This document shows positions 23,601-25,322 of a DNA stretch of 64,000 nucleotides, piece after piece. A program made the translations under genes and the position numbers. Within the stretch, counting starts at the first letter, position 1. Every line of letters begins with the position of its first letter. The notes under the pieces are model-generated. The model searched no databases, was not told where the DNA came from, and was given only the letters and a program-made list of their open reading frames with translations. The stretch is from Candidatus Omnitrophota bacterium (GTDB lineage: Bacteria; Omnitrophota; Gorgyraeia; Zapsychrales; Fredricksoniimonadaceae). Location of the stretch: positions 199,729-263,728 of the forward strand of contig JAUSEK010000023.1 of NCBI GenBank assembly GCA_030650275.1. Direction: 5' to 3'.

Positions 23601-25322
23601 GGGAATGAACCGGCTAACGGCACGGAACGAGCGGCTGAAGCGATAGCCATAACCACTTTCCCAGTATTAACTGCAAGTGGTGGACACGAAGTTACGGGCA
23701 GAAAACCGATTGTTGCCGCCAAATTCGGCAGTCTGATGCAAATACGTTCAATCGTGTGGATGGAGATGCTAAGGGCATACGAAAGGATTGATGGCCGGCG
23801 AGAAGCCGACGCCGCAATGCTGGCGCCGTTAAGAGACGGTAATTATCCCGCAGAGCAGGCGGCCTTCAATACGGAGATGGATCGATTATATGGTGAGGAA
23901 TTGAAGGCGGCTTTCGATGATGTTCGTCAAGATGGAAAAGAATATGTATTAGGACCGAGAGCTAAAAGTGCAGTGAGTAACCTTGTTCAATATTATCATG
24001 ATAATGTTGGACGTAATTCAAGAGAATGGCAGCGTAATTTTTATGAATGGGTCCAGTCGCACCAATCATTTTTATCTGCCAATGTTATTGCTGAAATAGG
24101 CCTTGAAACCTATGCACCGTTCTTTTTGGAAAAATTACAGGCAATTGCTTTAGAGAATGATCCTGACGGTAATCCTCGGGCCGCGGCCAGACAAATCCAA
24201 GAAATTGCCAAAGAGGGAATGATTGGCGGGTATGAGGTCAGTGGTGATATTAAACAAGAAGCTCAAAGAATTTTGGTCACACATCCAAACTTGAGTGGAT
24301 TAGCAGAATGGTTGAAGGAAGATCCTTTTCCGACAGTTGAAGAGGGGAGCATACCCGGCTATTTGCTTTTAGTTCGTCACGGAGAGACTACGTGGAATGA
24401 AACCGCTCTTAATATGTGGGCAGGGTGGTTGGGGGCGCATGTGACTGAAAGAGGACGCCAGCAAACACTTGAAGTTGGAAGTAAAATGAATAAGCTTACG
24501 TTTCAACATGCAATTTCCTCTGATTTAATCAGAGCTATCGAGACAATGGAGTATTTTCTCGAAGGCCGTGGGGATACTATGCCCTATGAAACCTCTTCGG
24601 ATTTGCGTGAAAAATCCTATGGTTTTCTGGCTGGTTTCAGGAGAACGGATGTTGCACGATTGTTTACAAGAGTCAAAGATCTGTTCACTTTTTGGCGTAG
24701 GGAACCTGATGGACGTGCGCCAGGAGGAGAAAGTTTTGAAGACACTAAAGAAAGGGTTCGTCACGATTTAGTGCATAGTATTCTTCCCCGTATTGCTCGA
24801 GGAGAAAATGTGGTCATTTCAGCTCACGGGAATAGCTTGCGGGCCCTTATTGCAGCGTTGAGAGAGTTCACGTTGGGGCGAGCTTTGACTAGACAAGAAG
24901 TTATTGATCTCGAAGTACCTCAATCCGCGCCAATCGGGATCATTTTTGATAAATTGTTAAAGGCCAAAGAATTTTGGTCGTCCGAGATAGGTGCTGAGGC
25001 AGTTCAAGAGGCCTTGTTAAACAGTGCCGCCGACGCCGCGATGGCAGGAAAATATAAAGAGCGCAAGCCGGACCAGGCGATGGCGACAACCCCCGGCGGT
25101 ATTGACTTCAACCGCGCAAAGATGCAGATGAACGTGCGCAAAGAGGGCGCGGGCGTGCAGATGCAATTTGACCCAGCCATGATCGAACGCATTAAGCGTG
25201 AGGGCTTTGACGGCCTGGATTTCAAGATCGACACCATTGTCCCCATCACAAACCTGCCAATGCTCCTTGGCCTGCGCAAAGAAGAACAAGAAAGCCGCCC
25301 GCCACAATTGGCCAGCGTGTAA
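20658..25322 (+). CDS. giant secreted mosaic protein, paralog 1 (conserved N-terminal module, variable low-GC centre, dPGM-like histidine-phosphatase domain, conserved C-terminal tail)
   Basis: Signal peptide. N-terminal ~330 aa is highly similar to the N-terminus of ORF 30840-33440. 'LLLVRHGETTWNE...SAHGNSLRALI' histidine-phosphatase motifs near residue 1200-1400. C-terminal 'GGIDFN...IVPITNLPMLLGL' is shared with paralog 2. Confidence 0.7.
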   Translation: MFKKFLNLVLILTFVASSLAPARSYAAPLSLPEPGTMVNLSPAFESVLIKGLKVHPENPFAFDFIVDTGHTGLSVETRHASSLHNESMKLIKYFLTALTIPEKDLWVNLSPYEKDRMIAENLGKTQMGQDMLAQDYILKQLTASLIYPERDLGKAFWDKVYQKAQQLYGTTEIPVNTFNKVWIVADKADIFERGNVAYIVGAHLKVMLEEDYTALNKNQQGLSPPKSSIGGPEHGTSSGFPTKTFGNDSHAMASQIVREVILPSIEQEVNQGKNFAPLRQMFYSMILASWYKMALKDTILTQLYGNQSKTKVGINANNPNDKDKIFEQYLKAYKKGVFNYIKEDASAALSTGASTPSSRQSSGLGRSAQVPRKYFSGGLQMGVDQAMRVVHDLPLGTSLRTGNTFDVAILANTKLAGSDGAMVARIPVNYTNTRTRQAVAGLKLTELGVGYTRLSNGNPTPEMIFTVTTPSGRTIELTGASPAGESEGVRAALFMLDGSAAEDLTLIRDGVLKAVYGDISREDAENRMLKDIFGLDRQQALVQMKADLKGKNIKVALWIAEKVILPKLKDAIESGRVDPAIRYRMDDTQNKSIDDFLINLDIELFGREGYKGDQFLALSGGNVTALSRVGYRLVATLNGVSNEEVLSHGYNPDTGEVDPHQEFGIVHPMPVLIEGAAHGGWLTDFQEFMYLMMLNERERAMKGLAPKFESLLNKIQAVTVALTDILKKQGESVGVGSEAAFMLRNANSNLDPIQYLLDAARKSGLVVGEDYGLSFDWATSEIYHTTADGWPVTGYYLSLEGRLGKLPEIIIPGGTAEGQVRTLGQLITVQGKKYAVLSTINMFDWIKYLITRTNNPLPLATLEDIFAQFDIQGTRMLTGLLYELKRTSGFPFSFQNSNGVTQVMDDMWTTRRDIMRAAIKGTPLGEPLVIGEGRDQEVLNFPQDTFDGGLVKLNQVGPIKWFMQAAAELRARGRDVVDSHRGNEPANGTERAAEAIAITTFPVLTASGGHEVTGRKPIVAAKFGSLMQIRSIVWMEMLRAYERIDGRREADAAMLAPLRDGNYPAEQAAFNTEMDRLYGEELKAAFDDVRQDGKEYVLGPRAKSAVSNLVQYYHDNVGRNSREWQRNFYEWVQSHQSFLSANVIAEIGLETYAPFFLEKLQAIALENDPDGNPRAAARQIQEIAKEGMIGGYEVSGDIKQEAQRILVTHPNLSGLAEWLKEDPFPTVEEGSIPGYLLLVRHGETTWNETALNMWAGWLGAHVTERGRQQTLEVGSKMNKLTFQHAISSDLIRAIETMEYFLEGRGDTMPYETSSDLREKSYGFLAGFRRTDVARLFTRVKDLFTFWRREPDGRAPGGESFEDTKERVRHDLVHSILPRIARGENVVISAHGNSLRALIAALREFTLGRALTRQEVIDLEVPQSAPIGIIFDKLLKAKEFWSSEIGAEAVQEALLNSAADAAMAGKYKERKPDQAMATTPGGIDFNRAKMQMNVRKEGAGVQMQFDPAMIERIKREGFDGLDFKIDTIVPITNLPMLLGLRKEEQESRPPQLASV
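20880..20907. repeat. perfect 28-bp palindrome inside paralog 1 coding sequence
   Basis: GTAGAGACGAGGCATGCCTCGTCTCTAC is its own reverse complement. Its counterpart in paralog 2 is at 31056-31083. Confidence 0.9.
21321..21402. repeat. two-hairpin palindromic repeat element, in-frame copy inside paralog 1
   Basis: TTGTCACCCCCGAAATCTTCTATCGGGGGTCCAG...GGATTCCCGACAAAAACATTCGGGAATGACA encodes '...LSPPKSSIGGPEHGTSSGFPTKTFGND...'. Confidence 0.8.
21701..21768. repeat. hairpin flanked by 15-bp direct repeats inside paralog 1 coding sequence
   Basis: GCTCAGCACAGGTGC ... GTCCCGACAATCGTCGGGAC ... GCTCAGCACAGGTGC. The extra ~17 aa are absent from paralog 2 at the homologous site. Confidence 0.7.

What the first reader, a model, noticed from the sequence alone, without database searches (positions are those of the whole stretch)
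25080..25322. Shared ~70-aa C-terminal tail of the paralogs may be a sorting, anchoring or secretion signal
Both full paralogs, and the remnant, end with GGID(F/L)N.A.(M/L)...R..G.GV ... G(F/L)...I..IVP.T..P.L..(V/G)L. This was retained even in the collapsed locus, so it is under selection independent of the variable cargo. That pattern is typical of C-terminal sorting domains (T9SS CTD, PEP-CTERM-like), but the sequence matches none of those I know.
Basis: inference. Interest (0 to 1): 0.5.

Follow-up and report, generated by a model that had tools for sequence, protein, structure and literature searches.

The report
Conserved C-terminal tail of Omnitrophota modular proteins
The ~70-residue tail is real and widespread, but it is the C-terminal end of one large, uncharacterised family of exported Omnitrophota proteins that always also carry the same N-terminal domain, with swappable enzyme modules in between, so it is not a general sorting tag.

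Summary
The shared tail is real. ORF A (20658-25322, 1554 aa) and ORF B (30840-33440, 866 aa) both end in GGID(F/L)N…IVP…; the "remnant" (60467-60968) keeps only the last ~35 residues, out of frame, and is a pseudogene.

A tail profile hits 4,810 clusters among 1.84 billion representative proteins, almost always within 10 residues of the C-terminus. No Pfam, NCBIfam, PADLOC or PDB sequence family matches it.

The tail is not portable. In 79 genome loci, every complete gene with the tail also has a Sec-type signal peptide and a ~350-aa conserved N-domain, and vice versa. All named members are Candidatus Omnitrophota, with several, often tandem, copies per genome.

Between the two ends sit variable, normally cytoplasmic modules (dPGM, enolase-like, receiver, PFK, adenylate kinase, NUDIX, methyltransferase). 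A 17-fold-enriched D-x-A-M linker motif brackets them.

Alone, the tail has no compact predicted fold (pTM 0.22), no transmembrane helix and no neighbouring sortase or secretion genes.

Best reading (inferred, ~0.4): a non-autonomous β-rich docking segment that works with the N-domain as a two-part frame. A family-specific export signal (~0.3) is not excluded. T9SS-CTD and PEP-CTERM membership fail the tests.

The parts
20658..20735 (+). Sec-type signal peptide of ORF A (MFKKFLNLVLILTFVASSLAPARSYA|AP)
   Evidence: Read from the sequence. The same basic n-region, hydrophobic h-region and AxA-type c-region are present in nearly all 59 complete homologues examined. NCBI's called start (M88) cuts it off.
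20658..21791 (+). ORF A signal peptide plus conserved N-domain (to ...PRKYFSGG, aa 378)
   Evidence: 48% identical to ORF B aa 4-372 (E 6e-112). 1,353 clusters, and all named ones are Candidatus Omnitrophica/Omnitrophota. No Pfam, NCBIfam or PDB sequence match.
22659..23015 (+). Enolase-like segment of the ORF A cargo (partial match)
   Evidence: Enolase_C E 1.6e-5; TIGR01060 E 1.3e-12 over model positions 139-250 of 425 only.
24363..24878 (+). Histidine-phosphatase / dPGM-like cargo domain of ORF A
   Evidence: His_Phos_1 E 5e-31; dPGM models E 1e-26 to 6e-33. The RHGE and HGNS motifs are visible in the sequence.
25032..25082 (+). Two D-x-A-M linker motifs (DAAM, DQAM) just upstream of the ORF A tail
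   Evidence: The motif is 17-fold enriched in the family (175 observed against 10.3 in shuffles). It clusters 0-25 aa before the tail and 0-50 aa after the N-domain.
25080..25319 (+). C-terminal tail of ORF A (the finding); GGID at 25095, stop codon 25320-25322
30840..31925 (+). ORF B signal peptide (to ...PSRA|GE, nt 30923) plus conserved N-domain
   Evidence: AF2 pLDDT is 80-97 over most of aa 30-300.
32784..33116 (+). Receiver-like cargo domain of ORF B (degenerate)
33216..33437 (+). DSAM linker motif plus C-terminal tail of ORF B (GGID at 33249)
   Evidence: The first hairpin (aa 805-819) has pLDDT 81-92 in the full-length model.
60467..60838 (+). Remnant: signal peptide plus the first ~100 aa of an N-domain, ending in TAA
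60840..60968 (+). Remnant: the last ~35 aa of a tail in a different reading frame (no GGID half)

Best explanation
The tail is the C-terminal half of a two-part conserved frame that defines one large, Omnitrophota-specific family of Sec-exported modular proteins. The architecture is: signal peptide, ~350-aa N-domain, D-x-A-M linker, variable cargo module(s), D-x-A-M linker, ~65-aa tail.

The tail is not an autonomous domain. It is a β-strand-rich docking segment: GGIDLN, then two amphipathic strands around a DGxG turn, then a DPAM-capped helix, then the strand PVIINIxP, then LPxLLGL. It becomes ordered only against a partner. Because it never occurs without the N-domain, the most likely partner is that N-domain. 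Docking could be in the same chain, which would close the cargo into a loop, or in the next chain, which would give head-to-tail assembly of paralogues carrying different cargo.

Shown here: the architecture, the obligate coupling of the two ends, the export signal, the lack of an autonomous fold in the prediction, and the phylum restriction. Inferred: that the tail binds the N-domain, and what the assembled frame then does (display, tethering or delivery of the cargo).
For: Coupling of the two ends: in 79 loci from GTDB species genomes, 94 ORFs carry the N-domain and 59 of these also carry the tail. All 35 N-domain-only ORFs either run off the fetched DNA (31) or are followed directly by a tail-bearing ORF, i.e. 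they are split genes (4). All 8 tail-only ORFs are cut at the locus start (4) or are those split partners (4). Of 5 short tail-only ORFs on long contigs, 3 are 3' ends of frameshift-broken genes with N-domain pieces upstream. A long 'N-domain-less' hit (P0193) also has frameshifted N-domain pieces upstream.

C-terminal lock: the tail ends within 10 residues of the C-terminus in 260 of 273 proteins.

Shared history: pairwise identity of tail and N-domain correlates across 117 full-length members (r = 0.64; mean identity 37% for the tail, 58% for the N-domain).

Alternating hydrophobic/polar strand patterns and near-invariant GGID, I and P positions in 335 unique tails.

No transmembrane segment in the tail and no conserved neighbouring gene.
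Against: No contact map or multimer prediction could be obtained, so docking of the tail on the N-domain is not shown. The two AF2 runs used different sequences and alignments, so the pLDDT difference is weak evidence.

Two loci (L080, L082) have a Response_reg ORF, an in-frame stop and a tail ORF with no N-domain nearby. Either these are decayed genes or the tail can exist without the N-domain.

The loci were collected with the N-domain as query, so the direction 'tail implies N-domain' rests on fewer cases. Of 81 tail hits of at least 300 aa, 29 lack the N-domain, and only some of these were shown to be fragments.

Strict C-terminal positioning is also what a secretion or sorting signal would show.
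Confidence: 0.4

Rival explanations
1. The tail is a family-specific C-terminal export, sorting or anchoring signal, functionally analogous to a T9SS CTD. After Sec export, an unidentified envelope machine recognises it and moves or attaches the protein to the cell surface or beyond. It may then be cut off at the D-x-A-M motif just upstream.
For: Extreme C-terminal position. Every carrier has a Sec-type signal peptide. Cargo is highly variable. A conserved D-x-A-M motif lies 0-25 aa upstream of the tail in a disordered linker, where a processing site would sit. A TamB-like gene in the window suggests a diderm envelope. Published Omnitrophota genomes encode T2SS/Tad systems next to other large exported proteins (bioRxiv 10.64898/2026.06.07.730766; 10.1101/2023.11.21.568195).
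Against: No match to any curated sorting-domain model. No compact autonomous fold. No cognate machinery in the window or conserved beside 79 homologous loci. The signal is not portable: it is confined to proteins with one N-domain, which is unusual for secretion tags. A 350-aa N-domain that is even better conserved (58% against 37% mean identity) then needs a separate explanation.
Confidence: 0.3
2. The tail is a homotypic oligomerisation module. Tails of several chains interlock, either as a COMM-domain-like strand-exchanged dimer or ring, or as a small shared β-barrel like a trimeric-autotransporter anchor. This would bundle paralogues with different cargo.
For: The predicted β-β-β-α-β pattern does not fold as a monomer, as expected of obligate oligomer domains. 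16 of 123 tails give weak COMM_domain hits (best E 0.0025). COMM domains are C-terminal obligate dimerisers, and bacterial COMMD-like proteins exist (PMC13392464). Several paralogues per genome share the tail.
Against: The COMM hits are below Pfam's cut-off (14-15 bits against 22.4), cover only ~27 residues, and the family consensus does not hit COMM. The tail profile finds no PDB sequence at E <= 5, although my understanding is that COMMD structures are deposited there. No YadA_anchor hit. There is no terminal aromatic β-signal and the strands are short for membrane spanning. This reading does not explain the obligate coupling to the N-domain.
Confidence: 0.15
3. The tail has no function as protein. 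The conserved ends are only leftovers of recent duplication, or serve as DNA recombination handles for swapping cargo cassettes.
For: Genes are often tandem (13 of 79 loci have at least 2 copies). Broken and collapsed copies are common. Cargo differs completely between paralogues.
Against: The window paralogues share only 37% tail identity, so the duplication is not recent and there is no sign of gene conversion. Specific residues (GGID 93-98%, I 96%, P 94%) are kept across 335 unique tails from a whole phylum while neighbouring positions vary freely. This is the signature of constraint at protein level.
Confidence: 0.03

Closest known systems
T9SS C-terminal domain (CTD; Por_Secre_tail TIGR04183 and type B TIGR04131) of Bacteroidota cargo proteins
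   Same: About 70-100 residues at the extreme C-terminus of Sec-exported proteins with very diverse cargo. Possibly preceded by a processing site.
   Different: No HMM match. The CTD is an autonomous β-sandwich (my knowledge of the family), whereas this tail has no compact predicted fold. The CTD is portable across unrelated proteins, whereas this tail is tied to one N-domain. No T9SS genes were seen, and the phylum is different.
MARTX toxins (conserved N- and C-terminal regions flanking exchangeable effector domains that an internal protease releases)
   Same: Conserved ends, a mosaic central region of enzyme modules that differs between paralogues, and a short conserved motif in the inter-module linkers that could be a cleavage site.
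   Different: From my knowledge of the family, MARTX toxins use a T1SS C-terminal signal with no Sec signal peptide, have glycine-rich repeats and carry a cysteine protease domain. None of these was found here. The cargo here looks like housekeeping enzymes and receivers, not known toxins.
Donor-strand or head-to-tail assembly modules (chaperone-usher and type V pilins)
   Same: Exported subunits whose terminal β-strand is not self-sufficient and completes the fold of another subunit. Many paralogous subunits per genome.
   Different: No sequence or fold similarity was shown. Here the subunits carry large enzyme-like inserts. No usher, chaperone or lipoprotein signal.
Dockerin modules of cellulosomal enzymes
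   Same: A ~70-aa C-terminal module shared by many secreted enzymes with different catalytic domains, serving assembly rather than secretion.
   Different: No dockerin HMM hit and no duplicated Ca-binding loop-helix motif. No separate scaffoldin is known; the candidate partner here is the protein's own N-domain.
Omnitrophota giant proteins ('Archaeovorins', West-Roberts et al. 2023 preprint; 2026 complete-genome preprint)
   Same: Same phylum. Signal-peptide-bearing proteins that string together normally cytoplasmic domains (NUDIX, HAD, methyltransferase, receiver). Members of the present family exceed 3,000 aa.
   Different: Those papers describe proteins of more than 10-30 kaa with many transmembrane helices and SecA-like domains. 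In the passages I searched and the one section I read, neither paper mentions this N-domain, the tail or D-x-A-M. I could not test whether the giants carry them.

Membership tests
T9SS CTD (type A/B) | Sequence match to CTD profile models (TIGR04183, TIGR04131, Pfam Por_Secre_tail) | tested here: not met
   No such hit for ORF A, ORF B or their tails, or for 123 tails scanned one by one at E <= 1.
T9SS CTD (type A/B) | Autonomously folding β-sandwich of ~70-100 aa | tested here: not met
T9SS CTD (type A/B) | Portability: found on proteins with unrelated N-terminal architectures | tested here: not met
   All complete tail-bearing genes in 79 loci also carry the same N-domain.
T9SS CTD (type A/B) | T9SS machinery genes in the genome (PorK/L/M/N, SprA, PorU/V) | tested here: inconclusive
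   None among the ORFs scanned in the window or conserved next to homologues. The whole genome was not available.
PEP-CTERM / LPXTG / GlyGly-CTERM type sorting signals | Tripartite signal: short motif, hydrophobic transmembrane helix, basic cluster at the very C-terminus | tested here: not met
   No transmembrane-length hydrophobic stretch in the tail. The sequence after LLGL is polar and variable. No NCBIfam hit.
PEP-CTERM / LPXTG / GlyGly-CTERM type sorting signals | Cognate exosortase, sortase or rhombosortase | tested here: inconclusive
   None in the window or in conserved neighbourhoods. Genome-wide search not possible.
T1SS C-terminal signal / RTX proteins | No N-terminal Sec signal; GGxGxD nonapeptide repeats upstream of the signal | tested here: not met
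   A canonical Sec signal peptide is present in nearly all members. GGID occurs once per protein, not as repeats (59 in tails, 2 unrelated internal occurrences).
Trimeric autotransporter anchor (YadA_anchor) | Pfam YadA_anchor match; four membrane-length β-strands ending in an aromatic residue | tested here: not met
   No Pfam hit. The strands are 5-11 residues, and the C-terminal end is variable and polar.
COMM domain (PF07258) | Profile match above Pfam's gathering score over the whole ~64-position model | tested here: not met
   16 of 123 tails hit weakly (best E 0.0025). The three hits examined individually score 14-15 bits against the 22.4 cut-off and cover model positions ~30-59 only. 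The consensus tail does not hit. The tail profile finds no PDB sequence at E <= 5.
COMM domain (PF07258) | Strand-exchanged obligate dimer or ring | not testable with these tools
   No multimer prediction was available.
Omnitrophota SP-N-domain-cargo-tail family (uncurated; defined here) | Sec-type signal peptide plus the ~350-aa N-domain (WVNLSPYE, FNKVWI, PRKYFSGG motifs) | tested here: met
   ORF A and ORF B both have it.
Omnitrophota SP-N-domain-cargo-tail family (uncurated; defined here) | GGID...PVIIxIxP...LLGL tail at the extreme C-terminus | tested here: met

The most novel reading that the evidence does not exclude
The N-domain and tail together form a delivery chassis for polyprotein-like effectors of host-dependent Omnitrophota. 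The frame would mediate export, and possibly transfer into a host or prey cell. The D-x-A-M linkers would be processing sites that release cytoplasm-type enzymes (glycolytic enzymes, adenylate kinase, NUDIX, methyltransferases, receiver-like modules), which only make sense where ATP, SAM or UTP are available. The giant 'Archaeovorin' proteins could be extreme members of the same scheme.
Probability: 0.2. Interest if true: 0.85.

Novelty: new variant of a known kind. Interest (0 to 1): 0.6.

Why it matters
Omnitrophota are uncultured, ultra-small bacteria thought to depend on hosts, and how they interact with other cells is unknown.

This family is large: at least 4,800 clusters at 50% identity and at least 600 loci in species-representative genomes. 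It is multi-copy, restricted to the phylum and absent from Pfam, NCBIfam and the PDB. NCBI currently names its members after whichever cargo domain they carry ('response regulator', 'histidine phosphatase'), with start codons that cut off the signal peptide.

Recognising the two-part frame and the D-x-A-M linkers does three things:
- It corrects the annotation.
- It defines two new domains worth curating.
- It raises a concrete question: why does this phylum export dozens of normally cytoplasmic enzymes on one common chassis?

If the frame proves to be an assembly or delivery device, it would be a new route for enzyme display or effector transfer.

Tried and rejected
- Single-sequence search with the ORF A tail gave only 4 hits because the tool relies on shared words. 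A profile was needed.
- The search for homologous proteins appears to return only proteins of a length comparable to the query (all hits under 150 aa, all at most 700 aa). That first made the tail look like a stand-alone mini-protein. The exhaustive search and the contig look-ups showed that most of these are gene fragments.
- Pfam, NCBIfam and PADLOC scans of the whole proteins and of 123 individual tails matched no sorting-domain family.
- The weak COMM_domain and Aconitase_2_N hits were followed up and judged sub-threshold.
- PDB sequence-profile searches with the N-domain and with the tail gave zero hits.
The N-domain finds only 3 loci in IMG/VR, so the family is not phage-borne.
- Clustering the flanking ORFs of 79 loci revealed no conserved partner gene.
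- Literature searches found no description of this N-domain, tail or D-x-A-M motif.
- I did not attempt a covariation (DCA) test of tail-N-domain contacts. Only ~117 non-redundant full-length sequences were in hand.
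Full report
**1. What is at the coordinates**

The finding lies at the 3' end of a 1554-aa ORF (ORF A, 20658..25322, +). A second ORF (ORF B, 30840..33440, +, 866 aa) ends with a related sequence. By tblastn the two tails match each other at E = 4e-6 to 6e-5 (37% identity), and nothing else in the 64-kb window scores better than E ~0.2.

A 123-aa ORF (60467..60838) encodes a signal peptide and the first ~100 residues of the family's N-domain and stops at TAA. Only the last ~35 residues of a tail follow, in another frame (60840..60968). Survival of both gene ends after an internal deletion says nothing about selection.

**2. The organism and the current annotation**

ORF B from Met33 and ORF A from Met88 are identical or nearly so to NCBI proteins MDO8675852.1 ('response regulator') and MDO8675846.1 ('histidine phosphatase family protein'). 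Both come from a Candidatus Omnitrophota MAG, on a 325-kb contig. The annotated starts remove the signal peptide and part of the conserved N-domain. Conservation of the upstream residues in homologues shows that the longer ORFs are correct.

**3. Architecture of the two genes**

Both begin with a canonical Sec-type signal peptide (MFKKFLNLVLILTFVASSLAPARSYA|AP and ...FLTTAVPVPSRA|GE). A ~350-aa domain follows, 48% identical between them (E 6e-112) and ending in PRKYFSGG.

The middle differs completely:
- ORF A has a partial enolase-like segment and a histidine-phosphatase/dPGM domain whose RHGE and HGNS motifs are intact.
- ORF B has a receiver-like domain just under Pfam's cut-off, which appears to lack the acceptor Asp.

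Both end with the tail. Neither the N-domain nor the tail matches anything in Pfam, NCBIfam, PADLOC or the PDB sequence set.

**4. How widespread the tail is**

A profile of seven tails, searched exhaustively against 1.84 billion representative proteins, finds 4,810 clusters at E <= 1e-3 and 950 at E <= 1e-10, in proteins of up to 2,276 aa among those listed. In 260 of 273 fetched proteins the match ends within 10 residues of the C-terminus.

The consensus from 335 unique tails is: D-x-A-M, 3-10 residues, G-G-I-D-[LF]-x-N-x-A-x-M-x-[LM]-x-[VI]-x-K-[DE]-G-x-G-[VI]-x-[MF]-x-[FL]-D-P-A-M-[IL]-x-[RQ]-[IL]-x-x-x-G-[FI]-x-G-[LF]-x-[PF]-V-I-I-x-I-x-P-[IV]-T-N-L-x-x-[LF]-L-G-L, then a short variable polar end. 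GGID is 93-98% conserved, one Ile 96% and one Pro 94%. This residue-specific conservation across a phylum, at only 37% mean pairwise identity, is the real evidence for purifying selection at protein level.

**5. The tail is not a portable tag**

The N-domain alone retrieves 1,353 clusters, and every named one is Candidatus Omnitrophica/Omnitrophota. They are labelled Omnitrophota MAGs or, in automatic submissions, 'uncultured Planctomycetales'.

In the 79 loci kept:
- 94 ORFs carry the N-domain and 59 carry both ends.
- All 35 N-domain-only ORFs either run off the fetched DNA (31) or are followed directly by a tail-bearing ORF (4 split genes).
- All 8 tail-only ORFs are cut at the locus start (4) or are those split partners (4).

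Many short 'tail-only' proteins appeared. Of five that lie on long contigs, three are the 3' ends of frameshift-broken genes in long-read assemblies, with N-domain pieces 3-10 kb upstream. A long N-domain-less hit (P0193) is similar. Two (L080, L082) are a Response_reg ORF, an in-frame stop and a tail ORF with no N-domain nearby, and remain unexplained.

Copies are multiple per genome: at least 9 in one MAG among the loci kept. They are often tandem: 13 of 79 loci have two or more. Tail and N-domain identities correlate (r = 0.64 over 6,786 pairs), so they share one history, with the tail evolving faster. Only 3 loci exist in IMG/VR.

**6. Cargo and linkers**

In 43 full-length members the recognisable cargo domains are Response_reg (6), RNA polymerase alpha CTD (2), adenylate kinase, phosphofructokinase, methyltransferases, HAD, NUDIX and UDPGP. 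One search adds NUDIX, methyltransferase and HEAT. These are normally cytoplasmic, cofactor-dependent domains, yet nearly all of the 59 complete members examined have a Sec-type leader with a basic n-region, a hydrophobic core and an AxA-like site.

A short motif, D-x-A-M, occurs 175 times in 59 members against 10.3 expected from shuffling. Control ORFs from the same loci have 15 in 144,499 residues. The motif concentrates 0-50 aa after the N-domain, between cargo modules, 0-25 aa before GGID, and once inside the tail (FDPAM). In the ORF B model all four copies lie in linkers with pLDDT 28-43. This looks like a short linear motif marking module boundaries. A processing site is one possibility; a helix N-cap, as in the tail's DPAM helix, is another.

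**7. Structure predictions**

Full-length ORF B (150-sequence alignment) gives a confident N-domain (pLDDT 80-97) built of long helices and three β-hairpins, a receiver fold, and disordered linkers. The first tail hairpin (aa 805-807 and 814-819) is predicted as strands at pLDDT 81-92.

**8. Genomic context**

The window holds housekeeping genes: pyruvate dehydrogenase E1/E2/E3, PEPCK, biotin carboxylase, DHQ synthase, an ABC-F protein, an HlyD/AcrB efflux pair, LpoB-like and TamB-like proteins, and a Bro-N protein just downstream of ORF A. No sortase, exosortase, T9SS or other obvious cognate apparatus is present, and clustering the flanking ORFs of 79 homologous loci shows no conserved partner.

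**9. Interpretation**

The comparison with T9SS CTD or PEP-CTERM fails every testable defining feature: no profile match, no autonomous fold in the prediction, no transmembrane helix plus basic cluster, no portability and no nearby machinery.

The strongest new fact is the obligate pairing with a better-conserved N-domain on Sec-exported proteins. My preferred reading (confidence ~0.4, inferred) is that the tail is a non-autonomous β-strand docking segment working with that N-domain as a two-part frame. It would clasp the cargo in cis or link subunits head to tail.

The alternatives are:
- a family-specific export or anchoring signal, perhaps removed at the upstream D-x-A-M (~0.3);
- a homotypic oligomerisation module, for which the weak sub-threshold COMM-domain similarity is only a lead (~0.15);
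- conserved ends as mere recombination handles, which the residue-level conservation effectively excludes (~0.03).

**10. Comparison with known systems and literature**

Functionally the architecture recalls T9SS cargo, MARTX toxins (conserved ends, mosaic centre, linker cleavage), dockerin-tagged enzymes and donor-strand pilins. It is a member of none of these.

Two preprints on Omnitrophota giant proteins describe signal-peptide-bearing proteins that string together similar 'cytoplasmic' domains (NUDIX, HAD, methyltransferase, receiver). In the passages I searched and the one section I read, neither mentions this N-domain, tail or motif. A term search of the Omnitrophota survey of Seymour et al. 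2023 (signal peptide, secreted, C-terminal, protein family, effector, unknown function) returned no hits. Members of the present family exceed 3,000 aa, so a link to the giants is possible but untested.

**11. Verdict**

This is a real, widespread, uncurated C-terminal module. It is part of a new two-ended protein family rather than a general sorting tag. Its mechanism is inferred, not shown. Interest is moderate to high because of the size of the family, the odd export of cytoplasm-type enzymes and the bracketing linker motif.

Noticed in passing
window 21807-21818, 21912-21923, 23808-23819, 25032-25043, 25071-25082, 25170-25181 (ORF A); 32058-32069, 32085-32096, 32748-32759, 33216-33227 (ORF B): A D-x-A-M tetrapeptide is ~17-fold enriched in the family (175 observed against 10.3 in shuffles). 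It sits in disordered linkers that bracket the cargo modules, and once inside the tail. It could be a processing site or a short linear motif.
   Followed up: partly
window 20658-20919 and 30840-30935: NCBI's protein records for these genes (MDO8675846.1, MDO8675852.1) start at internal Met88 and Met33. This cuts off the signal peptide and the start of the conserved N-domain. The records name the proteins after the cargo domain only.
   Followed up: yes
window 32784-33116: The receiver-like domain of ORF B reads DLVVTS where receivers have DLxxxD, so the phospho-acceptor Asp seems to be missing. The Pfam score is just under the cut-off. This suggests a pseudo-receiver used as a structural or binding module.
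   Followed up: partly
window 60467-60968: This is a collapsed family gene: an N-terminal stub and half a tail in different frames, a pseudogene. Directly upstream on the minus strand (59598-60482) is an AAA_22 ATPase gene. My ExeA/GspA-like reading of that gene rests on sequence appearance only.
   Followed up: partly
window 25426-26256: A Bro-N domain protein is encoded ~100 nt downstream of ORF A. Another small ORF starts ~150 nt after the remnant (about 61117). I did not check whether such DNA-binding genes recur next to family members.
   Followed up: no
L082 3600-8240 and L080 7032-8219: Several consecutive ORFs lie in one reading frame, separated by single TGA, TAG or TAA stops. In L082 these are a 595-aa ORF, a histidine-kinase-like ORF (my reading of its C-terminal sequence; no domain scan was run), a Response_reg ORF and an 80-aa tail ORF; in L080 a Response_reg ORF and a tail ORF. 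No N-domain is nearby. They may be decayed genes or real stand-alone tail proteins.
   Followed up: partly
L033, L044, L061, L077 (ORFs starting near 7950 and running off the locus end): Family members longer than 3,000 aa exist. Their cargo repertoire overlaps the domain lists published for Omnitrophota giant 'Archaeovorin' proteins, which suggests a possible continuum.
   Followed up: no
tails P0024, P0026, P0028 and 13 others of alignment A4: There are recurrent but sub-threshold Pfam hits to COMM_domain (16 of 123) and to Aconitase_2_N (9 of 123). The hits examined individually score 12-16 bits.
   Followed up: partly
window 17605-18690: A weak Peptidase_Mx (putative zinc metallopeptidase) match (E 1.4e-6) lies ~2 kb upstream of ORF A, followed by an ATP-grasp ligase. 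No link to the family was established.
   Followed up: no
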